NCBI GenBank assembly: GCA_035327305.1 | Contig: DAOLDL010000004.1 | Span: 12,180-76,179, forward strand | DNA length: 64,000 bases | Direction: 5' to 3' | Source of the DNA: Kiritimatiellia bacterium | GTDB lineage: Bacteria > Verrucomicrobiota > Kiritimatiellia > CAIVKH01 | Shown: positions 6,777 through 62,148 of the stretch, piece by piece | How positions within the stretch are numbered: position 1 is the first letter of the stretch | Layout of the letters: each line of letters starts with the position of its first letter | Notes under the pieces: model-generated | Told to the model about the DNA's origin: nothing | The model's input: only the letters and a program-made list of their open reading frames with translations | Databases searched by the model: none | Made by a program: the position numbers and the translations under genes

Positions 6777-7930
6777 GACAAACCTCCCGCCACTGCATGC
6801 TTGCGTTGTCGTCGCGCGTGCTTGATCAACATTTGCATGAAGTGCCACGCCATACCCAGGACAACAATGCCGGTTGAAACATAGGGAAGCAGTCGCCCGT
6901 AATTGCGTGTGACGGCAAATGTCGAGGATTCAGAACCATCCGGTAATTCGCGGTATGATTGTTGATACAATGTGTACCCGCGATGACGAAGCGGCTTGTT
7001 CATGGAAATGGTCAACTCACGGGTAATTCCGTCGGCTTGAACTTCCACGACACTGGAAAAACTCCTGGGAGTCTGGGTGCCGGGGTGAAGCTCCTTTCGA
7101 AAATCCACCAACGTAACCAGCAACGGGAGCGGATACTTTTTATGGCGTAAGCCAATGGCATATTCCTTGTCGCCGACAGGAATGATCAACGGCGCGGTGT
7201 CATCACCGTATAGCAGAATTTTTTGGGGATCCATTTCGGGGGACGACACCAAAAATATGCCTCCCGGCGTATTTTGGGTCGGTTCTTTTTCCAACGGCGC
7301 TTTTTCGAGGCGGCTTATATTCAACGCGGTCAGGTAAGGAGACGGATCCGTGCGCGACTGGTATGCGCGCGCATGATCGTGGTAGACTTCCACCTCCACC
7401 GTGATCGGAATGGGATCAAACGACAAACGTTCGCCGGGCTGCAATCCGCGGCTGTTGATGGCATAGACATCACGCACCGCGCCTTCACGATTCCAGACGG
7501 CCAACTCCCACTCGTAGTACGACGACGAGACATTCGATGCTTCGCCCTCCCACAACGAGAGATAAGATTCCTCGCCATATTTATGGGTGATGGCGCCGCC
7601 GATCAGCATGATCAGAAGTCCGGCATGAATCATGAGAATGCCGGGCTTCAACGGTTGGAATGCCAGCATATTGATCATGTAGCCCAGCAGATTGATCATC
7701 AATACGCCCAATACCAGCTTGGCGCCCGGAAATGGCAAAACGCCGAACACCAAGACAAACCACGATGTAAAAAACTTTTCCTGCGCGGCAAACAAGCCGT
7801 GTTCAACCTGATAAAGCGTGCCCCAAAAAGTAAGGATCATCAGCAATCCAAGACAAATCACGGTCAGCGGAATGGAAAACATCCATTGCACCGGGGATGA
7901 TCCCCACACTTTTAAAAGTTTTTGAGTCAT
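6773..7930 (-). CDS. resB: Cytochrome c biogenesis protein ResB/Ccs1 (System II)
   Basis: N-terminal TM helices, a large periplasmic domain, and a C-terminal TM (VSTGIVVLGMAWHFMQ). Immediately upstream of ccsA and translationally coupled to it. Confidence 0.75.
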   Translation of the reverse strand: MTQKLLKVWGSSPVQWMFSIPLTVICLGLLMILTFWGTLYQVEHGLFAAQEKFFTSWFVLVFGVLPFPGAKLVLGVLMINLLGYMINMLAFQPLKPGILMIHAGLLIMLIGGAITHKYGEESYLSLWEGEASNVSSSYYEWELAVWNREGAVRDVYAINSRGLQPGERLSFDPIPITVEVEVYHDHARAYQSRTDPSPYLTALNISRLEKAPLEKEPTQNTPGGIFLVSSPEMDPQKILLYGDDTAPLIIPVGDKEYAIGLRHKKYPLPLLVTLVDFRKELHPGTQTPRSFSSVVEVQADGITRELTISMNKPLRHRGYTLYQQSYRELPDGSESSTFAVTRNYGRLLPYVSTGIVVLGMAWHFMQMLIKHARRQRKHAVAGGLS

Positions 7931-7936
7931 GTCGTA

Positions 7937-8599
7937 TTAAATTCTTGAAGGTTGCATGCGGACCGATCGGCATAATTCCTCAAATGCGGACTTATGGCGC
8001 TTAAGAACATCCGTGTCACCGGTCAGCTTGACAAACGCGGAATGATCCCCGACGACAATGATTCCGGCAAGTGTGCCGATTCTTGCATTGGCGGGCAGGA
8101 TATCGGCGAAGTCAAACAGGCGGCATTCATATCCGCCGACGGTGACAATACGTTTCGGGTTGGCGACGAATTCCTTCAGGCGGGATTCGGCAACCGTATG
8201 CCCAAGCTGGCCGACCCAACGGCGGATGTTGGCCTCATCGCCACCCACATCGCCCGGGAAACTCAAGATTGTGCATTCCTGTCCCTCCACCATCAGGGTG
8301 GCGATACGCATACCCGAGCCGCCGAGATTTTCCCAGCCGGGCGGTGTATCCCATTCCAGTGGCAAAGCAGGGGTGCGTAACTCGGGAGGAAGGTCGGGCA
8401 TGCGGGAAGAACCGGCCATCGGCGCGGCGGATGGCGGCATGGCGCTTTCCGATACAACTGCAGGCGAGCTTCCTTGCGGAGACGGATCATCGACCACAAA
8501 ATTAATCTCGCGGTAATGTCGCACTTCTCGATCGGCTTTTTCGCAAGCAATACAAAGTGTTGCGACCAAACCAGCTAAAACTATCTGCTCGAATTTCAT
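7937..8599 (-). CDS. Probable lipoprotein, unknown function
   Basis: Signal peptide with Cys (LVATLCIAC), then a Pro/Ser-rich linker and a globular domain. No recognisable catalytic motif. Confidence 0.45.
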   Translation of the reverse strand: MKFEQIVLAGLVATLCIACEKADREVRHYREINFVVDDPSPQGSSPAVVSESAMPPSAAPMAGSSRMPDLPPELRTPALPLEWDTPPGWENLGGSGMRIATLMVEGQECTILSFPGDVGGDEANIRRWVGQLGHTVAESRLKEFVANPKRIVTVGGYECRLFDFADILPANARIGTLAGIIVVGDHSAFVKLTGDTDVLKRHKSAFEELCRSVRMQPSRI

Positions 8600-29026: not shown

Positions 29027-31681
<2,655 letters not shown>

Positions 31682-31684
31682 ACA

Positions 31685-32053
31685 ATGCAAGCCATTAACC
31701 TCGTGCTTTGGGTGCACATAGTTTCCATGGTCAGCGTGATCGGCATCATGCTGTTCGTCCAGCGTTGTCTTGCCCCCGAAGTACGCAACAACGCAGAAAT
31801 GTCGCGCTCCATCGCCCGCCTGGCCAATACACTTTTGGCCATCGGCCTGATCGCAGGTATTTCCTACTACGTTCTGAACAAAGGCTACACCATGGGGCCG
31901 CACTACAACGGTGTCGTGGGCGTAAAATTTGTTTTCCTGCTGGGTGCGGGAGCTGTTATCGGTATCAGCAAAGGCACGGATCGGGGAGACGTTTTTCGCT
32001 GGATTGCTTTTTCCCTTATGATGGTGGCGTCGCTTTTCGGCGCAACACTGTAA
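31685..32053 (+). CDS. Small 4-TM membrane protein, unknown function, immediately downstream of atpC
   Basis: 122 aa and hydrophobic. It starts 4 nt after the atpC stop. Confidence 0.4.
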   Translation: MQAINLVLWVHIVSMVSVIGIMLFVQRCLAPEVRNNAEMSRSIARLANTLLAIGLIAGISYYVLNKGYTMGPHYNGVVGVKFVFLLGAGAVIGISKGTDRGDVFRWIAFSLMMVASLFGATL

Positions 32054-32060
32054 TTGCCCG

Positions 32061-32381
32061 ATGATGGTTAAATTAAAGAAGAAGTGGGGCATTACCAGCA
32101 CACTGCAGTTCATCCTGATTCTCGTGGTATTCTCACTGGCCGGTTTAGCCATTACCCAGTGCCGTGCGCCGGTTTTTCATGTTTTCGGTCTCACCGAGGA
32201 AACACCGATGTGGCTCAAAGTCACTGTGTATTTGTTGTGCGTGTTTCCACTCTACCAGCTATTCCTTCTTGTTTTTGGCGCATTGCTGGGCCAGTTCCGC
32301 TTCTTTTGGGAAAAAGAAAAACGCATGGTGCAATGGGTGACCGCTAAAATAACCGGCGAACGAACCACGGCTCAATCCTGA
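32061..32381 (+). CDS. Small 2-TM membrane protein, unknown function
   Basis: MMVKLKKKWGITSTLQFILILVVFSLAGL, then a second helix and a basic C-terminus. Confidence 0.35.
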   Translation: MMVKLKKKWGITSTLQFILILVVFSLAGLAITQCRAPVFHVFGLTEETPMWLKVTVYLLCVFPLYQLFLLVFGALLGQFRFFWEKEKRMVQWVTAKITGERTTAQS

Positions 32382-32460
32382 CGCCCATAACGGGACAGGC
32401 CGAATCCCTGTAATATCCGGCGCTTGCTTGATTCTCAAAAACGCCTTATCGTCTTTAACC

Positions 32461-33297
32461 ATGACCAATCCCATTCAATATGTAGCCTATCTCGGCCCCA
32501 GCGGAACGTTCTCTGAATTGATGGCACAAAAGCGCTTCGGAAAAAATATCGAGCGGGTCCCCTTTCCCGGCATCTATGAAGTATTCGAGTATGTGCGCAC
32601 CCACAAAAACGGCGTGGGAATTGTTCCGATAGAAAACTCCTCCGGCGGCACCATTTATGAAACGATCGATTGCCTGGTGGAAACACGTCGACCCCTCGTG
32701 ATCCGCGAAGAACTATCCCTGCAAGTCAGATTGGCTTTGTTGGGTCACAAGGGTGAAAAAATAAACACCTTGTATTCGCACTTCGCGCCCATGCAACATT
32801 GCGACCCCTGGATTCGCAAACATCTTCCACGCGTCGAACGCAAGGAAACCGCGTCCACCGCCGTCGCGGCGGAAACCGTTGCGACCAACCGTCATGCCGC
32901 CGCTCTCGGAATGAAACAAGCCGCCAAACGTTATGGGTTGGACATTCTTGAATTTCCCGTGCAACCCGAAGTGCCCAACCTGACTCAATTCGTCTGTATC
33001 GGACATCGCGGTCCGGCATTCAAAGATGCGGTTAAAACCAGCCTGATCGTCACGCTTCACAACCGACCCGGCAGTTTGTGCGAATTTCTGGAAATCTTCC
33101 GCGACCACCGCGTTAACATGACGCGTTTGCTTTCGCGACCGATGATCGGTCGACCGAAATCCTACATATTTTTTATTGATATCGAGGGTACGCCGGAAAA
33201 CCAAAATGTCGGCAAGGCGCTTGGCAAAGCCAAAAAGGTCGCGGAAAGCTTGCGTGACGCCGGCTCCTACCCGGTGCGTCGGCCCTATTTATCGTAA
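32461..33297 (+). CDS. pheA: Prephenate dehydratase (PDT + ACT domains)
   Basis: VAYLGPSGTFSE at the N-terminus and a C-terminal ACT domain (SLIVTLHNRPGSLCEFLEIF). Start at MTNPIQY. The track ORF starts at 32428. Confidence 0.85.
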   Translation: MTNPIQYVAYLGPSGTFSELMAQKRFGKNIERVPFPGIYEVFEYVRTHKNGVGIVPIENSSGGTIYETIDCLVETRRPLVIREELSLQVRLALLGHKGEKINTLYSHFAPMQHCDPWIRKHLPRVERKETASTAVAAETVATNRHAAALGMKQAAKRYGLDILEFPVQPEVPNLTQFVCIGHRGPAFKDAVKTSLIVTLHNRPGSLCEFLEIFRDHRVNMTRLLSRPMIGRPKSYIFFIDIEGTPENQNVGKALGKAKKVAESLRDAGSYPVRRPYLS

Positions 33298-33323: not shown

Positions 33324-35609
33324 TTATTCGCCTGCCTCCACCGGGGCTTTGACTGGCGCATCTTCTTCTGCAGGTGCTTCCGCAGTAGGCGGTTCAATCG
33401 GTGCCTCCGAAGCCGTATCTTCAACTGATTCAGCTACCGGCACATCCGTTTGCATTTTCACTTTGCGTAACGATTCAGGCAGATATCCATCCAGGCGTCC
33501 GATCAGCCATAAATACGACAACACAAGCAATACCGCGATCGCCAGGTAGAGCTTCCATGGTTTTTTCTTCTCGGCAAACGGATCATCCATGGTGCGAATC
33601 GCGCCTTCAGGAAGTTTTGCAACTTTGGTCAAGGCGGCCCCAAACGGCACGTTCAACTTGGCCTTGGTATTGATAGCCCAGCCATTGGCGTCAAGAATGG
33701 GACCGAGGTTGCGATTGCGAAGTTTAAGCCAGGCCAGCAACATGGATGGACCAGAAATCAGAAATATAATCCCTATGATTCCTAGCGGCAACCAAATGCC
33801 CAAGCCAAACATGGATTGCAACAATCCGGCGACCAGGGCGCTGACACCGCCCACCGCCGCGCCGATCAGGGCAATGGTGCCGAGATCAAGCTTTTTGGCT
33901 GGAGCGGGAGCCGGAGTAGCCGGTTTTTGATCGGCCGTGGCAACCACGGCCGCGGCTTCCGACATTTTACCTGTGGAAGCCTCATCGGCGGATTGTGCAC
34001 GTTTGGCAACTTGATCTTCAATAAAACGGACGAACTTCTTGTATGGGAGCCAGAAAGCTTCGCGGATGCTGATTGGATTGGCCACAACTCTGGTGATGGT
34101 GGCATCCCAGTCGTTTCCGCGACGATCGTAGAAAACGCCGTTGCGCCCGACCATAAGGTTGTCAGAGTCGCCATCGGTAAATGCGGCTACGATGTTGCGT
34201 TTCAACCCGCCCGGGCGTTTGATTTCACAATAGGCGAGGTAAGCTCCCGATAAACCGGCCATGGCCGCGTGCTTTGCTTCATCAGCGACTTCAATACACA
34301 ACGAACACGCGCGCGCGTCGAGATAAAGAGTTCCGACTTGGAATACCGCGCCCTTTTGTCCGTAGAAGTCACCAAAATTTACGTAATTGGTCAAAAGGTC
34401 GACAAGGTCGCGTTGAAAACGGACGAGCTTCTCCAATGCTCCAATATGCGCATTCTCTCCGGCCAGCACATTGTCCTTGGCGATCAATGCGGAAATGGCT
34501 TCTCTCGATTTCCCGGCCAATATTTCCTTCAAGCGGGGAACACCAAGCGCGGCCACGGCATCAGCGGGACGGGTGGCAATCCATGAGGCAAAGGGAGCGA
34601 GCTTGGCTTGCAGGCTTTCCCACTCTACGGCAGTGAGACTTTCTTTTGACCCAAGGACCGGGGTTACTGCATGTTCATTCAACACGGCGATGGCCGATTC
34701 CCATGCAGGATTTAATCCGGTCTTTAACGGCAGTGCTTTTCCGGCGGCGATTGATGCCAGCGGCAAGGCGGCAATTTCCGCATCGGTGATTGTCATGTCT
34801 TTGGCCGCCATGGCCAGATATTCGGACTCTTCGCGGTTCAATGCTCCAACCGCACGTGCGTCATAAACAGCAAGGCGGCACCTCGCGAAAAAGTCGTTAA
34901 CCTTCACCTTGACTGCATCAAGCGCCTTCAACGCCGCTTCCGACTTTTCAACGCCGAGCGGGGCGATGGTTGCATCAGTCGCTATTTTTTCAGTCCATGT
35001 GACATATGCGGATGCCTGATCAAAAAAAGCATCCGCACTGGACTGATTTACGCCGGGCTTGCCACTGCGATCGGAGACCGCACCCATGACGGAAATAATT
35101 TCTGCAATCGCTTTCCTGGTTTCTTCGTCTTCCGCCGCCTCGGCAGGAACAATTCCGTCACCATTAAACAACGTATTGCTGAAGATTTTCGTCTGATCGG
35201 CGATGTCGTCGATGCTGATGGCGTCCGCATCAGCTTTGCCGAGATTATCAAGAACACGGCGCGCCCCGGCCAATAGAGCCTCGTCTTTAATGTTGGAAAG
35301 TTTTACGGCATTACCGCCATCGATCAAGGCATCAAGATTCTTGAATGCACCTTGCGCCCACTCAACGGCGGCGATGACTTCCAATGGCCTTATGCGCCCA
35401 TCACCATCAAGATCAAGAAGGTCTGCCGTTTTCGGATCGAACTCGACGCCCCGGGTGGGCATACCCAACGCCATCCAAAGCTTTTGGTCAAGATTGCGGA
35501 GGTTCGCGATATCCTCTCCGTTTTTTAAAACAACTTGATCCACGCCGCCGGAGCGGAAAAACGTCCAATGGTGTGTTTCATCTGACGAATGATCAAACGG
35601 CAGTTTCAT
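33324..35609 (-). CDS. Large membrane protein of unknown function with N-terminal EF-hand-like loop and C-terminal 3-TM anchor
   Basis: DLLDLDGDGRIRPLEV is a canonical 12-residue EF-hand loop. A ~560-aa soluble alpha-rich region follows, then a Pro/Ala linker and TM helices (IALIGAAVGGVSALVAGLLQSMFGLGIWLPLGIIGIIFLI; LYLAIAVLLVLSYLWLIG). Confidence 0.55.
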   Translation of the reverse strand: MKLPFDHSSDETHHWTFFRSGGVDQVVLKNGEDIANLRNLDQKLWMALGMPTRGVEFDPKTADLLDLDGDGRIRPLEVIAAVEWAQGAFKNLDALIDGGNAVKLSNIKDEALLAGARRVLDNLGKADADAISIDDIADQTKIFSNTLFNGDGIVPAEAAEDEETRKAIAEIISVMGAVSDRSGKPGVNQSSADAFFDQASAYVTWTEKIATDATIAPLGVEKSEAALKALDAVKVKVNDFFARCRLAVYDARAVGALNREESEYLAMAAKDMTITDAEIAALPLASIAAGKALPLKTGLNPAWESAIAVLNEHAVTPVLGSKESLTAVEWESLQAKLAPFASWIATRPADAVAALGVPRLKEILAGKSREAISALIAKDNVLAGENAHIGALEKLVRFQRDLVDLLTNYVNFGDFYGQKGAVFQVGTLYLDARACSLCIEVADEAKHAAMAGLSGAYLAYCEIKRPGGLKRNIVAAFTDGDSDNLMVGRNGVFYDRRGNDWDATITRVVANPISIREAFWLPYKKFVRFIEDQVAKRAQSADEASTGKMSEAAAVVATADQKPATPAPAPAKKLDLGTIALIGAAVGGVSALVAGLLQSMFGLGIWLPLGIIGIIFLISGPSMLLAWLKLRNRNLGPILDANGWAINTKAKLNVPFGAALTKVAKLPEGAIRTMDDPFAEKKKPWKLYLAIAVLLVLSYLWLIGRLDGYLPESLRKVKMQTDVPVAESVEDTASEAPIEPPTAEAPAEEDAPVKAPVEAGE

Positions 35610-35721
35610 GCTATACTCCTATAAATCCACATGGTGGAGCATCCATTAGTATCTAAATTTCGAGGATTATCCACTCAAATTTTGGGGGCTGAATCCAACC
35701 GAATACGGCACCGAATCACCT

Positions 35722-36190
35722 TCATGCGAAGAGTTCTTTCATTTTGTGATGACGGTAGGAGAATATCTTGAAGACATCCGGCTGGACAAACCAGCGGTTG
35801 ATGATGGCTCCACCCGGAGGCTCATAGTCAACCTGATCACGGCAAAGGGTACCGCCATCCACGGCTTCAAAGGTGTGCTCATGAATCCACACACGGTATG
35901 GTCCATTTAGTTGTTCGTCTATAAATCGCCGCGATGGTTCCCAGGTCGTGATCTCTGTTTTCCAGGCAACGGGTATGCCATGCAGTCGAATGGTGTAGTC
36001 GATATGAACACCCTTATCCATGGCAACCGGTAATGGTGTCTTGATTTGAAAATGGACCCAGGGCGGCGTGATCAGATTCAAATTTTCCGCCCTGGCAAAA
36101 AAATCAAAAATATGTTCACGGGAGTGAGGAAGCCATAAACTGGCCGACACACGCCAGCGGCGGACGCTTATCCGTTCAATTTGCAACTTT
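35722..36190 (-). CDS. SRPBCC (polyketide-cyclase/START-like) family protein
   Basis: WVHFQIKTPLPVAMDKGVHIDYTIRLHGIPVAWKTEITTWEPSRRFIDEQLNGPYRVWIHEHTFEAVDGGTL is the SRPBCC ligand-binding fold pattern. The start is uncertain: the track ORF runs to 36348 and overlaps the upstream gene, so a TTG/GTG start near 36190 is likely. Confidence 0.45.
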
Positions 36191-36203
36191 TCCTCGATGT
36201 TGC

Positions 36204-36860
36204 TCAAGGCGTACCTGCCACACTGCCGAAACTTTGTTGCAGTAGCCAATGACCTTGAATAGAACGCGCGGCTACCTGAACCCGCTCTATCTGACACATC
36301 AGTGACTTCATCGCGGAAATCAACATATTCAGCCGTTCGTCCTCGCATTGCGACACCAGAATTTTTTGCCTGAGTTCAACATCCATCTCCAAAGAGGACG
36401 CGAGAAGAAATGACAAATCAGAAATCCCGGCATAGTGGCGATCTTCAGGCATGGAACCCGTGATGGCGTGAATTACCGCACGATGTAAATGGTAAGCCTT
36501 GTTGGCAAGGTCTTCATTCCAGTCGGCTCGCGTATCGTGATACAGCGTAATAGCGGATTGCTGGCAGGGATCACCGGCCTCAACGCCATGAATCGCAACA
36601 CGTCGACGACCAGCCACCACAACGTCCATTCGCCCGTCCTCGTAATGTTTGATTACTTTCAAAAGACGGACGACACAACCCACATCCGCAATTGCCTGGT
36701 TGTCAGAGTACGCAATGACAAATTCACCCGACCCGCCCGCTTTCTCGAGGGAAAGACAGTCATGAATCAGGCGCTTAAACCGGTCTTCAAAAATATGAAG
36801 CGGCACGATTTCGTGAGGGCAAACCGCTATGGGAAGCGGAAATATAGGCAAGCTGTCCAT
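36204..36860 (-). CDS. Stand-alone Lon N-terminal (LON substrate-binding, PUA-like) domain protein
   Basis: LPIFPLPIAVCPHEIVPLHIFEDRFKRLI matches the Lon-N signature (LP.FPL..vv.P....PLhIFEpRY). Start at MDSLPIF. Confidence 0.5.
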   Translation of the reverse strand: MDSLPIFPLPIAVCPHEIVPLHIFEDRFKRLIHDCLSLEKAGGSGEFVIAYSDNQAIADVGCVVRLLKVIKHYEDGRMDVVVAGRRRVAIHGVEAGDPCQQSAITLYHDTRADWNEDLANKAYHLHRAVIHAITGSMPEDRHYAGISDLSFLLASSLEMDVELRQKILVSQCEDERLNMLISAMKSLMCQIERVQVAARSIQGHWLLQQSFGSVAGTP

Positions 36861-36914
36861 GATGTAGTATCCATCAGCTCGCGCACTTTTCCAGCGCCAC
36901 TGCAAACATTTTGC

Positions 36915-38678
36915 TTAAATTACGAGGACGTTGTTTGCTTCCGATTGGCGGGATTGCATATTCAGCAGTTCGGCAAAATACCCGCGGGCGGCGACGAGTT
37001 GCTCGTATCCGCCCTCCTCCATAATCGTTCCATTGTTGAGGACGACTATGCGGTCCGCGTCGCGAATGGTACTCAATCGGTGCGCAATGGTGATCATGGT
37101 GCGATTGACGGCCAAACGTCTCATCGCCTGCTGGATGTACATTTCGCTGGCATAATCCAGCGCCGATGTGGCTTCATCGAGAATCAGAATACGGGGATCA
37201 CGCAGAATTGCCCGGGCGATGGACAGCCTCTGCCGCTGACCTCCTGACAACATCACGCCGCGCTCACCCACCAATGTCTCGTATTGACTGGGCATCTCCA
37301 TGATGAAATCATGGGCAAAAGCCTGCCGGGCGGCTTCCCGGACTTCATCATCGGTCGCATCGGGTTTCGCAAACCGGATATTATCGGCCACACTGCCGGA
37401 TAGTATCAAACTTTCCTGTAAAACAATCGCGGTTTGCTTTCGCAACCAGCGCATGTCCCAGTCCTCCTGCGACACGCCATCAATCAATATACGGCCACCA
37501 ACCGGCTTGTAGAGCCCCAGCAACAATGCCGCCAAGGTGCTTTTTCCGGAGCCGGAAGGCCCGACCAGCGCGATGTGCTCGCCGGGTTGAACCGAAAGGT
37601 TGAATTTTTCAAGAACCGGCCGCGTTCCGCCTTCGTACATGAAAGAGACGTTGTCGTATTGAATACGGCCCTCCAATCGCTCGGCCTTCATTTGCCCATG
37701 CCATTCCTCGACATAGGTGGAGTCCAGTAATTCCGAAACACTGCGATAGCTTTCCTGGCCGGCAAAATATTGTTCACCCATGCTGGCGAAAAGGTGAATG
37801 GGCATCATGATAATCGGCAGGCCGGCCATAAAAGCCAGCATGGTTCCGAGTGTCATATTGCCGTGAATAACCAGAACAGCGCCGCCACCCACGGTCAACA
37901 GCATGAAAAATTGTGATGACAGGTACATGACCGTGCTGAACTTGAAGCTAATGCGGGTGAGAGCAAGCCGTGACTCGGCAAATTCACCGCTGTGCTGATT
38001 AAGGTTGTTGGTGACTTGCCGCTCTTCGCCGAGACTGCGGACCAACCGTAATGCCGTAATGACCTCACTGGCCGTTCCCGTGAGCTTTTCTTGAGATAAC
38101 CGGGTTGCTTCATTATGGCGTTTCAGCTTGTTGTGGAAACAATAGCGTATGATTGCGAATAGCGGCACCATGAAGATCAGCACAAATGAAAGCTGCCAGT
38201 TTAGATAAACAAGCAGAGCGGAAATACTTAAACTGTAAAGCGCGTTGGGCAGGAACTGGTTCATCAACTGCGTCATTGTTGCTTCGATTTTCTGCGTATC
38301 GAACGCATATTTCGACAACAGACGTCCGGCCTTCTGCCGGTCGAGGTAGGCAAAGTTAAGGTAATGCAATTTGTTGAAAATATCCGCCCTCAACATCAGC
38401 ATCAGCTTCGCCATTTTACGGGCTATTTCCATGGCTCCGCCGACCGCGAAAAAGTAGTGGATAAACAAGAGAGACATGAATATCAGCGCCAGAATACCGA
38501 TACCCCGGTAATCGCCGGCGGGTATTTTCTTGTCAATGATCTGCTGAAAAATCCACGGGCACGGCGCAATGATCAGACAACGCAACAGCGCATACGTGGT
38601 GCCCAGCCAGAACAGACGGAAATGCCGCAGTATATAGCGGATCAGGCTGGGGCCGTCATTTGATGAATGTGAAGACAT
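36915..38678 (-). CDS. ABC transporter permease/ATP-binding protein (type I exporter, MsbA-like)
   Basis: 6-TM N-domain. Walker A GPSGSGKST, signature LSGGQRQRLSIARAIL and Walker B ILILDEATSALD. Confidence 0.85.
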   Translation of the reverse strand: MSSHSSNDGPSLIRYILRHFRLFWLGTTYALLRCLIIAPCPWIFQQIIDKKIPAGDYRGIGILALIFMSLLFIHYFFAVGGAMEIARKMAKLMLMLRADIFNKLHYLNFAYLDRQKAGRLLSKYAFDTQKIEATMTQLMNQFLPNALYSLSISALLVYLNWQLSFVLIFMVPLFAIIRYCFHNKLKRHNEATRLSQEKLTGTASEVITALRLVRSLGEERQVTNNLNQHSGEFAESRLALTRISFKFSTVMYLSSQFFMLLTVGGGAVLVIHGNMTLGTMLAFMAGLPIIMMPIHLFASMGEQYFAGQESYRSVSELLDSTYVEEWHGQMKAERLEGRIQYDNVSFMYEGGTRPVLEKFNLSVQPGEHIALVGPSGSGKSTLAALLLGLYKPVGGRILIDGVSQEDWDMRWLRKQTAIVLQESLILSGSVADNIRFAKPDATDDEVREAARQAFAHDFIMEMPSQYETLVGERGVMLSGGQRQRLSIARAILRDPRILILDEATSALDYASEMYIQQAMRRLAVNRTMITIAHRLSTIRDADRIVVLNNGTIMEEGGYEQLVAARGYFAELLNMQSRQSEANNVLVI

Positions 38679-38870
38679 GGGCGCCAATTTAGCAGATTTG
38701 AACCAGTAACCCCAAGCTAACAATTGACCGTTGGATATTTTTAATCCGGTGCAAACCGGACATGTTTACCGGAAACGGAAATGATCAGCCCGCCCCCTAC
38801 CGGTAATATGCCCGGGCTTGATGACCGACTGTTGAACCTATACACTGACACCTGAACGGAGGCTGTTACC

Positions 38871-39929
38871 ATGTTTTGCTCAATCATAAAAACCACCAAC
38901 ACAAAACTATTGTCACGGTTTGTGCTTCTGGTTTTATTTTTCACCACTACCAGCGTTTACGCGAGGGTTTGGACGTCACAGCGAGGATCGACGATCGATG
39001 CAGAATTCGTCCGCATGGAGGGTGATCTCGTGATTCTGCAAAAAAACGACGGTGAACAGTTGCGCATTCGACTGGCTGATCTGATTCCTGCCGACCAGGT
39101 ATTCGCCCGCCAGTCCTCCGTTGCACCGACAATACCGGCCGCCCACAGAAATACAAAACCGCAAACCCCGATCACCCCCGGATATTCGATGATCATGAAC
39201 GGTGTCGAGCTGGTTCCGGGAAAGCGGATTCAATATGAAGCAGATGTCCCCAATACACTACAGAAGGAGGCCTCGAAGGACGGAAACCCCACCCAGTTAA
39301 AATCCCGGGCGGTCATTGCGTTGCCGATGAACTTTGATCCAGCCAAAACCTACCCGGTGCTGATCATTAACGCAACGTCCGACGGCAATGCATCAAGCGT
39401 GGATCATCATCGACAATACTGGGAGACCGGAATCGATCGCGGATGGATCGTTATCGCCGCAGATCCATTAGAAAAACCTAAGGTCGATAACAATATGTGG
39501 CGTTGGGCGCTGGTCTCGTCATCGCTCGAATCCATTCACAAAATCTGGCCGCAATCGCGCGCCTGGCCGGTAGCCACGGCAGGGTTTTCCGGAGGAGCCA
39601 AACGGTCCGGCTACATTGGCGCACTGCTCGCCAAAAATGATTATAAACTCATAGGGATGTTCATGGGCGGATGCAATCAAGACATGGCCAGCAAAGGGCT
39701 TGAAACCTTCAAACCGAAAAAAAGTGATTTTCTGCGGGTTCCGATATTTCTAAGCAACGGAACATCCGACACCATTGCAACCGTTGAAGCCGGACGGCGA
39801 ACCCTGCAATCCATGGACAAATCGGGATTCAAAAAACTTAAACTCGAGACATATGACGGCGGACATGAACTGTATAAACCACATGTAATGACTGCGCTTG
39901 ATTGGTTTACCAGCGAGCAAAACAAGTAA
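38871..39929 (+). CDS. Secreted alpha/beta-hydrolase (esterase) with N-terminal SHD1-like domain
   Basis: Signal peptide. WTSQRGSTIDAEFVRMEGDLVILQKNDGEQLRIRLADL matches the bacterial SHD1/SLA1-homology pattern. Nucleophile elbow GFSGGA in a C-terminal a/b-hydrolase fold. Confidence 0.55.
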   Translation: MFCSIIKTTNTKLLSRFVLLVLFFTTTSVYARVWTSQRGSTIDAEFVRMEGDLVILQKNDGEQLRIRLADLIPADQVFARQSSVAPTIPAAHRNTKPQTPITPGYSMIMNGVELVPGKRIQYEADVPNTLQKEASKDGNPTQLKSRAVIALPMNFDPAKTYPVLIINATSDGNASSVDHHRQYWETGIDRGWIVIAADPLEKPKVDNNMWRWALVSSSLESIHKIWPQSRAWPVATAGFSGGAKRSGYIGALLAKNDYKLIGMFMGGCNQDMASKGLETFKPKKSDFLRVPIFLSNGTSDTIATVEAGRRTLQSMDKSGFKKLKLETYDGGHELYKPHVMTALDWFTSEQNK

Positions 39930-60726: not shown

Positions 60727-62148
60727 TTACTTCGCAATCGGGATAATGCGATCCACGGTCATCAAGGCGCTCTTGATGCAATCCGGCATGCCAATGCCGT
60801 GGTAAGAGCTTCCGGCAAGATGCAAACCGCCGACCGACGCGGCCAGCGCATCCATCTTTTCCACACGGGATGGATGGCCGACATCGTATTGCGGATTGCC
60901 TTTATGCCACTGGTAAACACGGTGAAGCATCGGCTTTGCGGTAATCCCGAACAATACGGCGAATTCATCGCGCACCATGTCAATCAATGCGTCTTCATCC
61001 TGTTCGGCCAGCGCCTCGTCGCGGTATCCACCAACAAACGCACGCAACAGTACGCATCCCGGCGGCGCGCGATGTTTGAATTTGGTTGAAGCCCAGGTGC
61101 AGGCAATGAGACGGCGTTTTTCACTGGCCGGAATCAAAACGCCAAAACCATCCAACGGACGATCCGCCGGAATGTCATCCAAAAGATAGGCCAGTGAACA
61201 TGTCGCCGTGCTGACAAACCGGATCGCACCCATCATGCGTGACAATTCTTCGTTCAGGGGCGCGACCAATCCGGCGGCGCGATGCGCGGGAATGGCCAGC
61301 ACCACATCATCGCAAGGCAGTGTTGCCGGGCCGTTACCGGACAATGAAAGCGTGTATTTTCCATCGCAACGTTCGATGGCGGTGACGGAAGTGTCGGTCC
61401 ATATCGTTCCGGTCAACCGCGCAATGAGCGCGTCGACAAGCTGGCGCATACCACCCTTCAAGGAGTTAAACATGGCATTTCCCGCCGCCGGCAAACCCGT
61501 CCGCCTGGGTGGATTCTTTTTCATTGCTTGCGCCGCGCGAATCAGGCTTCCGTATTTCTTTTCCATCTCCAGAAACATCGGAAACGCGCCGCGCATGCTC
61601 AACCGGTCCGGATCGCTGACAAAAATTCCGGCCATCAACGGACCGGCAAATTTATCCACAGCTTCACGTCCGAGACGTCGACCAATAAAATCGCCCAACG
61701 ATTCGTCGTCCGCCGCCGGACGCGGAGGCAGAAAGTATTCCATCGCCATGCGCAATTTTCCAAGCGGCGAAATGAGCGGCGTCATCAGAAAAGGCTTCAG
61801 CCTGGTGGGAATACTCAACCGGAATCCGGACGGCAATTGCACGAGTTTGCCGCGATTCAACACATACACTTTGTTTTCAAGCTGGTTGTTCGGGAGCAAC
61901 AACTCCGCCAGGCCAAGTTCATGGCACAAGGCGAGGCACCACGGCTTATCCGTCACAAACGAATCGGGTCCGCCTTCGATTACAAACTCGCGCTCATGAT
62001 CCGTGACAATTTTTCCGCCGACCTGACTCCGCGAATCAATAAGCGTGTAACGAACATCGACCCCTTGTTCTGCCGCGCGTTTTTGAAGGTAAAACGCAGT
62101 GGCAAGTCCCGCGATACCTGCACCGACAATGGCTACATGCCGACCCAT
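60727..62148 (-). CDS. hemY: Protoporphyrinogen/coproporphyrinogen III oxidase (HemY/CgoX family, FAD-dependent)
   Basis: VAIVGAGIAGLATAFYL FAD dinucleotide motif and the HemY C-terminus (GLHLAGSSYHGIGMPDCI). Confidence 0.8.
   Translation of the reverse strand: MGRHVAIVGAGIAGLATAFYLQKRAAEQGVDVRYTLIDSRSQVGGKIVTDHEREFVIEGGPDSFVTDKPWCLALCHELGLAELLLPNNQLENKVYVLNRGKLVQLPSGFRLSIPTRLKPFLMTPLISPLGKLRMAMEYFLPPRPAADDESLGDFIGRRLGREAVDKFAGPLMAGIFVSDPDRLSMRGAFPMFLEMEKKYGSLIRAAQAMKKNPPRRTGLPAAGNAMFNSLKGGMRQLVDALIARLTGTIWTDTSVTAIERCDGKYTLSLSGNGPATLPCDDVVLAIPAHRAAGLVAPLNEELSRMMGAIRFVSTATCSLAYLLDDIPADRPLDGFGVLIPASEKRRLIACTWASTKFKHRAPPGCVLLRAFVGGYRDEALAEQDEDALIDMVRDEFAVLFGITAKPMLHRVYQWHKGNPQYDVGHPSRVEKMDALAASVGGLHLAGSSYHGIGMPDCIKSALMTVDRIIPIAK

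What the first reader, a model, noticed from the sequence alone, without database searches (positions are those of the whole stretch)
33324..36905. 761-aa EF-hand-motif membrane protein with Lon-N-domain and SRPBCC neighbours
The large protein has a textbook EF-hand loop (DLDGDGRIRPLE) near its N-terminus and a long helical cytoplasmic region. It also has a Pro/Ala-rich linker and a 3-TM C-terminal anchor containing a conserved-looking LRNRNLGPILDANGW segment. I cannot place it in a known family. Directly upstream are two co-oriented overlapping genes: a stand-alone Lon N-terminal substrate-recognition domain and an SRPBCC lipid/ligand-binding protein. A possible reading is Ca2+-responsive membrane scaffolding or quality control, though the grouping may be a coincidental neighbourhood.
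Basis: partly seen in the sequence, partly recalled or inferred. Interest (0 to 1): 0.5.

Follow-up and report, generated by a model that had tools for sequence, protein, structure and literature searches.

The report
Unknown conserved calcium-loop membrane protein
The 761-residue gene is real and belongs to a very large, strongly conserved family of bacterial inner-membrane proteins with a calcium-binding-type loop; no database, solved structure or paper describes the family, and its two upstream neighbours are a coincidence of this one genome.

Summary
A 761-aa ORF (33324-35609, minus strand) carries a near-canonical EF-hand loop, a Pro/Ala linker, three C-terminal TM helices and the LRNRNLGPILDANGW segment. 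A Lon-N gene and an SRPBCC gene lie upstream on the same strand.

The interpretation mostly fails. Neither neighbour recurs in about 157 related loci, not even in a 77%-identical relative that keeps the downstream synteny.

The protein belongs to a large undescribed family. More than 7,000 clusters at 90% identity were found, in at least 589 species genomes of Verrucomicrobiota/Kiritimatiellia, Planctomycetota, Myxococcota, Nitrospirota and others. Members are about 50-60% identical across phyla, and the 360 best hits are all from metagenomes or MAGs and all labelled 'hypothetical'.

TM2 and the loop after it are as conserved as the soluble core, so the membrane part is functional rather than a mere anchor. 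The only cross-phylum neighbour is a DUF481 outer-membrane barrel, in about 8% of loci.

My best guess, at low confidence, is an autonomous cytoplasmic Ca2+-sensing inner-membrane protein whose TM module is the effector.

The parts
33324..35609 (-). Complete CDS of the 761-aa protein, the founding example here of an undescribed family
   Evidence: ORF with ATG and an AGGAG Shine-Dalgarno site. It is 100% identical to a Kiritimatiellia MAG protein, and more than 6,900 homologues score E<=1e-3. No Pfam or NCBIfam hit.
34350..35579 (-). Residues 11-420: cytoplasmic, mostly helical domain
   Evidence: AF2 pLDDT is mostly above 90 for residues 80-400. Forty positions are at least 95% conserved. No fold neighbour was found.
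35379..35414 (-). Residues 66-77: EF-hand-type loop DLDGDGRIRPLE
   Evidence: Invariant D66, D68, D70, G71, R72 and R74 in alignment A1. Ligand set DDDE in 84% of 474 sequences. Flanking helices are present in the model. hhalign aligns it to calmodulin EF-hand 1 at E 0.029. It fails PS00018 only at position 9.
35136..35171 (-). Residues 147-158: second, degenerate loop (FNGDGIV...), a possible partner of the EF loop
   Evidence: N149, G150, D151 and G152 are at least 98% conserved. Positions 1 and 12 are not acidic. There is a weak alignment to a polcalcin EF loop.
34074..34349 (-). Residues 421-512: small beta-barrel domain carrying the GRNGxxYD and DWDA motifs and invariant H447
33939..34073 (-). 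Residues 513-557: long single helix, conserved in its first two thirds (REAFWxPYK...) and Ala-rich and variable afterwards
   Evidence: Helix 515-557 appears in both models.
33885..33938 (-). Residues 558-575: variable Pro/Ala-rich linker ending in KK before TM1
   Evidence: pLDDT is below 50 in the full-length model. Conservation is 0.32.
33717..33884 (-). Residues 576-631: TM1-TM2 hairpin, with a Gly/Ala-rich TM1 and an S619-G-P621 kink motif in TM2
   Evidence: Hydropathy peaks of 2.28 and 2.40. pLDDT is 84-93. TM2 conservation is 0.73, and S619 and P621 are at least 98% conserved.
33558..33716 (-). Residues 632-684: basic cytoplasmic loop containing the RNRNLGPILDANGWAIN...NVPFG block
   Evidence: Twelve K+R against five D+E. 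Residues 632-662 have conservation 0.76 with 11 positions at 95% or more.
33501..33557 (-). Residues 685-703: TM3
   Evidence: Hydropathy peak of 2.05. Helix with pLDDT 82-92. Conservation is only 0.39.
33327..33500 (-). Residues 704-761: predicted periplasmic, acidic Pro/Ala/Glu-rich variable tail
   Evidence: Five K+R against fourteen D+E. pLDDT is below 50. Conservation is 0.10.
35722..36186 (-). SRPBCC (Polyketide_cyc) gene. It is a neighbour only and not part of the unit. The longest ORF would extend to 36348.
   Evidence: Pfam PF03364 at E 2.2e-8. The likely TTG start at 36186 is. It is absent from all related loci.
36204..36905 (-). Stand-alone Lon N-terminal (LON_substr_bdg) gene. It is a neighbour only and not part of the unit.
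   Evidence: Pfam PF02190 at E 1.3e-18. It is absent from related loci.

Best explanation
SHOWN. The gene encodes a member of a large, previously undescribed, strongly conserved family of bacterial inner-membrane proteins with a fixed architecture, in this order:
- a cytoplasmic module of about 560 aa, made of a helical domain with one near-canonical EF-hand loop and a degenerate second loop, a small beta-barrel, and a long helix;
- a variable Pro/Ala spacer;
- a three-helix membrane bundle whose second helix and following basic cytoplasmic loop are as conserved as the soluble core;
- a variable acidic periplasmic tail.

The gene has no conserved operon partner. The Lon-N and SRPBCC genes next to it are incidental.

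INFERRED.
- The protein works on its own, probably as a homo-oligomer.
- The invariant D-x-D-x-D-G...E loop binds Ca2+ (or another divalent cation) in the cytoplasm.
- Occupancy of that loop changes how the soluble module engages the conserved juxtamembrane loop and TM2.
- The membrane bundle is therefore the effector. My preferred, still speculative, version is that it gates ion or small-solute flux, or otherwise alters the membrane, in response to cytoplasmic Ca2+.
- In a minority of lineages it may act together with a DUF481-type outer-membrane barrel encoded next to it.
For: Family size and conservation:
- Three searches each returned 6,900-8,000 homologues, and their 360 best are 54-100% identical over more than 90% of the length.
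- There are 3,182 clusters at 50% identity.
- At least 589 species genomes and at least 597 metagenome contigs carry it.

Architecture and topology:
- The evidence is hydropathy and charge distribution and two AF2 models with pLDDT 79 and 85.
- KK before TM1, KLRNR after TM2 and KKK before TM3 place the N-terminal module and the loop in the cytoplasm.

EF loop:
- The ligand positions are conserved in 99% of 474 sequences.
- The loop sits in a helix-loop-helix.
- There are weak EF-hand Pfam hits in some homologues, and hhalign places the loop on calmodulin EF-hand 1.

The membrane module is functional:
- Conservation is 0.73 for TM2 and 0.76 for residues 632-662.
- It is 0.59 for the N-terminal domain, 0.32 for the linker and 0.10 for the tail.

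Autonomy:
- Neighbour clustering over 157 loci finds no general partner.

Envelope link:
- DUF481 (PF04338) occurs in 13 of 157 loci and is adjacent in 11. Those loci are spread over the family tree (target identity 55% against a background of 54%).
- A MipA barrel lies upstream in L091.
Against: - No experiment exists, and no member was seen in a cultured organism.
- Ca2+ binding is inferred from sequence only. The invariant Arg at loop position 9 violates PS00018 and might alter or abolish binding.
- The spacer between the soluble module and TM1 is variable and of low complexity. This argues against rigid allosteric coupling and fits a simple tether.
- The TM helices have no charged residues and few polar ones, so nothing marks a pore.
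- Oligomerisation was not tested.
- The DUF481 link holds in only about 8% of loci.
- AF2 inter-domain geometry is uncertain (pTM 0.58).
Confidence: 0.35

Rival explanations
1. Membrane-tethered scaffold or adaptor. The conserved cytoplasmic module is a binding platform held at the membrane by a flexible spacer, in the way ZipA or EzrA are held. The TM bundle docks to other membrane proteins, and Ca2+ is structural or modulatory.
For: - The spacer of residues 542-575 is variable and Ala/Pro-rich.
- The helical domain is elongated, and the only weak matches are long helical bundles, including one weak EzrA Pfam hit.
- Many invariant surface-type charged residues are present.
- No enzymatic motif was recognised.
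Against: - No conserved neighbour suggests a partner.
- Conservation of TM2 and the juxtamembrane loop exceeds what a tether needs.
Confidence: 0.25
2. Membrane-associated enzyme. The soluble module, with its many invariant Asp/Arg/Asn/His residues such as H447, DRSGKPG and GRNGxxYD, catalyses a reaction on a membrane or lipid-linked substrate that the TM bundle presents.
For: - There is a dense set of invariant polar residues.
- H447 is 99% conserved.
- Identity of about 55% across phyla is typical of enzymes.
Against: - No similarity to any catalytic fold or family was found.
- The Cys residues near H447 are lost one at a time in 28% of members, so there is no Cys-His catalytic pair or obligate metal site.
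- No pathway genes lie nearby.
Confidence: 0.12
3. One reading: a Ca2+-responsive membrane scaffolding or quality-control unit formed together with the Lon-N substrate-recognition protein and the SRPBCC ligand-binding protein.
For: In this genome the ABC exporter, Lon-N, SRPBCC and the 761-aa gene lie on one strand with gaps of 9, about 18 and 112 nt, so co-transcription here is possible.
Against: - None of 157 related loci has a Lon-N or SRPBCC neighbour.
- The closest relatives with context (70-78% identity) have other genes upstream.
Confidence: 0.03
4. c-di-GMP receptor. The beta-barrel is a PilZ-like domain that binds the second messenger and controls the membrane module.
Against: - The protein has no RxxxR motif anywhere and no [DN]x[SA]xxG motif in the barrel.
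- There is no Pfam PilZ hit.
Confidence: 0.03

Closest known systems
EF-hand Ca2+-binding proteins (calmodulin-type helix-loop-helix; PROSITE PS00018; Pfam EF-hand clan)
   Same: - It has a 12-residue loop with D, D, D at positions 1, 3 and 5, G at 6, I at 8 and E at 12, flanked by helices.
- A second conserved NGDG loop about 80 residues later could be the paired hand.
   Different: - Only about 30 of the 761 residues resemble EF-hand proteins.
- Loop position 9 is an invariant Arg, which PS00018 excludes.
- The second loop lacks acidic residues at positions 1 and 12.
- No Pfam EF-hand model reaches threshold on this protein.
- An insertion of about 70 residues separates the two loops.
PilZ / EF-Tu domain II type small beta-barrels
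   Different: - The PilZ signature motifs are absent.
- Sequence identity is 5-16%.
ClyA-family alpha-pore-forming toxin components XaxB/PaxB
   Different: - This protein is a resident inner-membrane protein with a cytoplasmic module, not a secreted toxin.
Membrane-tethered cytoplasmic organisers with flexible linkers (ZipA, EzrA). This is a functional analogy from general knowledge.
   Same: A large cytoplasmic module is joined to its membrane segment by a low-complexity spacer.
   Different: - The orientation is opposite, with the anchor at the C-terminus.
- The membrane module has three helices and is highly conserved.
- No sequence or fold similarity was found, apart from one sub-threshold EzrA hit in one homologue.

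Membership tests
EF-hand | 12-residue loop with oxygen ligands at positions 1, 3, 5 and 12, Gly at 6 and a hydrophobic residue at 8 | tested here: met
   The loop is D66, D68, D70, G71, I73 and E77. The ligand set is DDDE in 84% of 474 homologues and acidic or amide in 99%.
EF-hand | Full PROSITE PS00018 pattern | tested here: not met
   It fails at position 9 only (R74, which is Arg in 97% of homologues). Only 1 of 480 homologues matches the strict pattern, while 437 match when position 9 is freed.
EF-hand | Loop flanked by an entering and an exiting helix | tested here: met
   The AF2 model has H59-65, loop 66-74 and H75-88, with pLDDT of about 77-89. This is a prediction only.
EF-hand | Occurs as a pair of hands | tested here: inconclusive
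   The second loop (147-158) has invariant NGDG but non-acidic positions 1 and 12. The model coordinates could not be inspected for pairing.
EF-hand | Significant match to a family profile | tested here: not met
   - No Pfam hit at E<=0.1 for this protein.
- Sub-threshold EF-hand_1/5/6/7 hits in 1-3 of 42 homologues.
- PF13405 precomputed for 2 of 120 hits.
- The PDB profile search gave E 0.9, and hhalign against calmodulin gave E 0.029.
EF-hand | Binds Ca2+ | not testable with these tools
   This needs ITC or 45Ca overlay on the purified fragment.
   None of 157 non-redundant loci shows it.
PilZ c-di-GMP receptor | RxxxR and [D/N]x[S/A]xxG motifs on a six-stranded barrel | tested here: not met
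   [not shown]
   [not shown]
Known anti-phage defence or phage protein families | Match to PADLOC or PHROGs models, or presence on phages | tested here: not met
   No hits in PADLOC or PHROGs, and no tblastn match in 50,697 phage records.

The most novel reading that the evidence does not exclude
The family is a new class of Ca2+-regulated inner-membrane effector (a channel, transporter or membrane-remodelling device) with a fold not represented in the PDB. It is widespread in uncultured PVC, Myxococcota and Nitrospirota bacteria, and it would be one of the missing components of bacterial cytoplasmic Ca2+ signalling.
Probability: 0.15. Interest if true: 0.8.

Novelty: categorically new. Interest (0 to 1): 0.55.

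Why it matters
How bacteria sense and respond to cytoplasmic Ca2+ is poorly understood, and few dedicated sensors or channels are known. This family has an invariant EF-type loop in the cytoplasm, coupled to an equally conserved membrane module. It is present in thousands of environmental bacteria across several phyla, yet it is absent from Pfam, NCBIfam and the PDB, and it was not seen in cultured strains among the hits examined.

If the loop binds Ca2+ and controls the membrane module, the family would give a concrete, testable entry point into bacterial Ca2+ signalling and a new membrane-protein fold. If it does not, it remains one of the larger and better conserved pieces of protein 'dark matter' and would merit a Pfam/DUF entry.

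The 'categorically new' label applies to the family and fold. Whether the function is a new kind is unknown.

Tried and rejected
Searches that found no family or fold:
- Pfam, NCBIfam, PADLOC and PHROGs scans of the protein gave nothing.
- A Pfam scan of 42 divergent and 10 unusually long homologues, looking for informative fusions, gave only weak EF-hand noise and longer tails.
- PDB sequence searches with the single sequence and with the profile gave only EF-hand noise.

Hypotheses tested and dropped:
- Zn(Cys3His) site at C435/C438/H447/C461. The cysteines are replaced singly by A/V/S/L in 28% of members, so they are more likely buried core residues.
- PilZ. The signature motifs are absent.
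- Correlation between the tail motif [VLI]LGxxAP[AS] and a DUF481 neighbour. It is not significant (Fisher p 0.36).
- KamA, Nth, lipoate ligase and similar neighbours. These are lineage synteny within Verrucomicrobia, with target identity of 61-62% against a background of 54%.
- MoxR/DUF58/VWA operons near two loci. They did not emerge as recurrent neighbours.

Other checks with nothing to report:
- Rfam and promoter/terminator scans of the locus found nothing.
- There is no paralogue in the window.
- Literature searches for the motifs and for DUF481 found nothing relevant.
Full report
**1. Observation**

- The 761-aa ORF (33324-35609, minus strand) starts at an ATG preceded by AGGAG. It has the same G+C content as its surroundings.
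- Hydropathy gives three hydrophobic helices at about 576-601, 604-631 and 685-703.
- Basic residues flank these helices: KK before TM1, KLRNR after TM2 and KKK before TM3. The C-terminal tail is acidic. This places the 570-residue N-terminal module and the 632-684 loop in the cytoplasm and the tail in the periplasm.
- The loop D66-LDGDGRIRPL-E77 is present. The Pro/Ala linker and the LRNRNLGPILDANGW block are also present.
- The upstream ORFs are a Lon N-terminal domain protein (PF02190, E 1.3e-18) and an SRPBCC protein (PF03364, E 2.2e-8). An MsbA-like ABC exporter lies further upstream on the same strand.
- The apparent 145-nt overlap of the two upstream genes is probably an artefact of the longest-ORF rule. 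A TTG at 36186 with a GAGGA site, 18 nt after the Lon-N stop, gives a normal-sized SRPBCC protein.

**2. What the large protein is**

It matches nothing in Pfam-A, NCBIfam, PADLOC or PHROGs. PDB chain sequences give only noise-level EF-hand similarity, whether searched with the single sequence or a profile. Yet it is far from an orphan.

- Three homologue searches, started from Kiritimatiellia, Myxococcota and Planctomycetota members, each returned 6,900-8,000 proteins. The 360 best are full-length, 700-800 aa and 54-100% identical to the query.
- A profile search of 1.84 billion cluster representatives found 3,182 clusters at 50% identity, of which 1,424 score E<=1e-30.
- A scan of GTDB species genomes found at least 589 genomes. 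The depositors label them Verrucomicrobiota, Kiritimatiellia, Lentisphaerae, Planctomycetota, Myxococcota/Polyangia, Oligoflexus, Spirochaetes and Methylomirabilis. A Nitrospirae member appears.
- A scan of JGI metagenomes found at least 597 further contigs.
- Every named hit is a MAG or metagenome protein called 'hypothetical'. I saw no isolate.
- The only trace in the annotated collections is a 150-residue fragment, 44% identical, embedded in a mosaic ORF next to tet(Y) on Aeromonas salmonicida plasmid pBY3. There is nothing in phages.

**3. Anatomy**

An AlphaFold2 model built from a 56-sequence alignment has pLDDT 79, with values above 90 for most of residues 80-400. A second model of residues 415-720, built from 100 sequences, has pLDDT 85 and pTM 0.67. 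Together they give this order of parts:

- a helical domain (11-420);
- a small beta-barrel (421-512);
- a 43-residue helix (515-557);
- a disordered Pro/Ala spacer;
- a TM1-TM2 hairpin;
- a partly structured cytoplasmic loop;
- TM3;
- a disordered tail.

Conservation was measured in a 474-sequence alignment as the mean frequency of the commonest residue.

| Region | Conservation |
|---|---|
| Loop 632-662 | 0.76 |
| Beta-barrel | 0.74 |
| TM2 | 0.73 |
| TM1 | 0.63 |
| N-terminal domain | 0.59 |
| TM3 | 0.39 |
| Spacer | 0.32 |
| Tail | 0.10 |

S619, P621, R633, W644 and N647 are at least 98% invariant. The membrane part is therefore a functional module and not just an anchor.

**4. The EF-hand loop**

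- The ligand positions 1/3/5/12 are D/D/D/E in 84% of 474 homologues and acidic or amide in 99%.
- G6 and I/V8 are conserved, and the model places the loop between two helices.
- A relaxed EF pattern occurs in only 0.55% of shuffles of this protein. hhalign places the loop on calmodulin EF-hand 1 at E 0.029.
- The loop fails PROSITE PS00018 at position 9, where Arg is 97% conserved. No Pfam EF-hand model reaches threshold on this protein.
- A second invariant N-G-D-G loop (149-152) may be a degenerate partner.

I therefore treat Ca2+ binding as probable but unproven.

**5. Fold comparison**

- Foldseek against 350,542 PDB chains gave no hit with E<0.08. The best hits were XaxB/PaxB, with TM-score 0.16 or less.
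- The only recurring theme is generic small barrels: EF-Tu domain II, PilZ domains and inteins.
- The PilZ signature motifs are absent.
- The CxxC...H...C cluster in the barrel is not an obligate metal site, because the cysteines are lost singly in 28% of members. H447 is 99% conserved.

**6. Gene neighbourhood**

Pfam-annotated contexts were obtained for eight relatives. My own ORF clustering covered 157 non-redundant loci with 6-10 kb flanks.

- No locus has a Lon-N or SRPBCC homologue near the gene.
- The 77%-identical relative L007 shares the downstream pheA/DUF6787/ATP-synthase block but has a hexapeptide acetyltransferase upstream.
- The commonest neighbours are KamA-like, Nth and a lipoate-ligase-like gene. 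These are confined to a Verrucomicrobia sub-lineage, where target identity is 61-62% against a family background of 54%.
- The one neighbour that recurs across the tree is a DUF481 outer-membrane beta-barrel (PF04338). It occurs in 13 of 157 loci and is adjacent in 11, in both Verrucomicrobiota and Myxococcota, with target identity of 55%.
- A MipA barrel sits upstream in a 70%-identical Kiritimatiellia relative, and small OMP-like genes flank L008.

This is a weak but real hint of an envelope connection. DUF481/YdiY is itself uncharacterised.

**7. Mechanism**

What is shown:
- a stand-alone, vertically stable, highly constrained inner-membrane protein;
- a cytoplasmic module with an EF-type loop;
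- a conserved TM2/juxtamembrane module.

What is inferred:
- cytoplasmic Ca2+ (or another divalent cation) binds the loop;
- the soluble module then acts on the conserved juxtamembrane loop and TM bundle, which is the effector;
- the effect may be solute flux or a membrane change, probably in a homo-oligomer.

I give this reading about 0.35. The main rivals are:
- a tethered scaffold, favoured by the variable spacer (0.25);
- a membrane-associated enzyme (0.12);
- a PilZ-like c-di-GMP receptor (0.03).

**8. Novelty and verdict**

At the level of family and fold this protein lies outside everything searched: Pfam 2025, NCBIfam 2026, PADLOC, PHROGs, PDB 2026 by sequence and by structure, and the literature. 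Only a loop of about 30 residues resembles a known motif. Whether the function is a new kind is unknown, and AFDB and HHpred searches could not be run.

Interest is moderate to fairly high at 0.55. The family is unusually large and well conserved for one with no description, it touches on bacterial Ca2+ sensing, and the follow-up experiments are clear. All the evidence is computational, however, and the mechanism is weakly constrained.

Noticed in passing
Related loci L022, L026, L027, L034, L048, L050, L054, L056, L058, L059, L068, L102, L117, L118 (gene next to the family member); L091:4948-5778: A DUF481 (YdiY-like) outer-membrane beta-barrel gene lies next to the family member in about 8% of loci across Verrucomicrobiota and Myxococcota, usually immediately upstream on the same strand. 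A MipA barrel takes that position in a Kiritimatiellia relative. In some Verrucomicrobia a 174-aa repeat-rich lipoprotein precedes DUF481.
   Followed up: partly
L173:1733-2710 (Aeromonas salmonicida plasmid pBY3, NZ_CP060033.1, about 60791-61822): A fragment equivalent to residues 334-482 of the family, 44% identical, is fused into a mosaic ORF. It sits beside a guaA fragment, tetR(Y)/tet(Y) and an IS91-like element. It looks like a remnant captured when the resistance region was mobilised, and it implies an unidentified donor that carries the family.
   Followed up: partly
C-terminal tails of homologues (for example P0018, P0047, P0052, P0069; L056, L068); absent from window 33327-33500: About a quarter of the homologues (114 of 480) carry a short conserved motif, S-x-x-V-L-G-x-N-A-P-A-[YW], in the otherwise variable periplasmic tail. 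It occurs in several phyla and could be a docking peptide. It is not correlated with a DUF481 neighbour (p 0.36).
   Followed up: partly
window 31685-32381 (+), between atpC (31337-31681) and pheA (32428-33297): Two small hydrophobic ORFs of 122 and 106 aa follow the ATP synthase epsilon gene. The same pair, one of them annotated DUF6787, sits in the same place in the 77%-identical relative L007. It may be a conserved accessory of the ATP synthase operon in this lineage.
   Followed up: no
window 36915-38723 (-) to 33324: An MsbA-like ABC exporter, Lon-N, SRPBCC and the 761-aa gene form a same-strand run with gaps of 9, about 18 and 112 nt. A lineage-specific operon is possible here even though it is not conserved elsewhere.
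   Followed up: partly
L005:1898-5679; L009:1-6448: MoxR / DUF58 / VWA / BatD-type operons lie within 2-6 kb of the family member in two unrelated Verrucomicrobia contigs. This did not reach significance in the 157-locus survey.
   Followed up: partly
Record titles of L012, L055, L061, L074, L085: Several 'binchicken' co-assembly MAGs that carry the gene are labelled Klebsiella or Bifidobacteriaceae. The gene content and similarity point to Verrucomicrobia-like organisms, so the depositor taxonomy is probably wrong.
   Followed up: no
window 38871-39929 (+): A 352-aa secreted-looking protein gives only a sub-threshold SHD1 hit at its N-terminus. It was not characterised.
   Followed up: no
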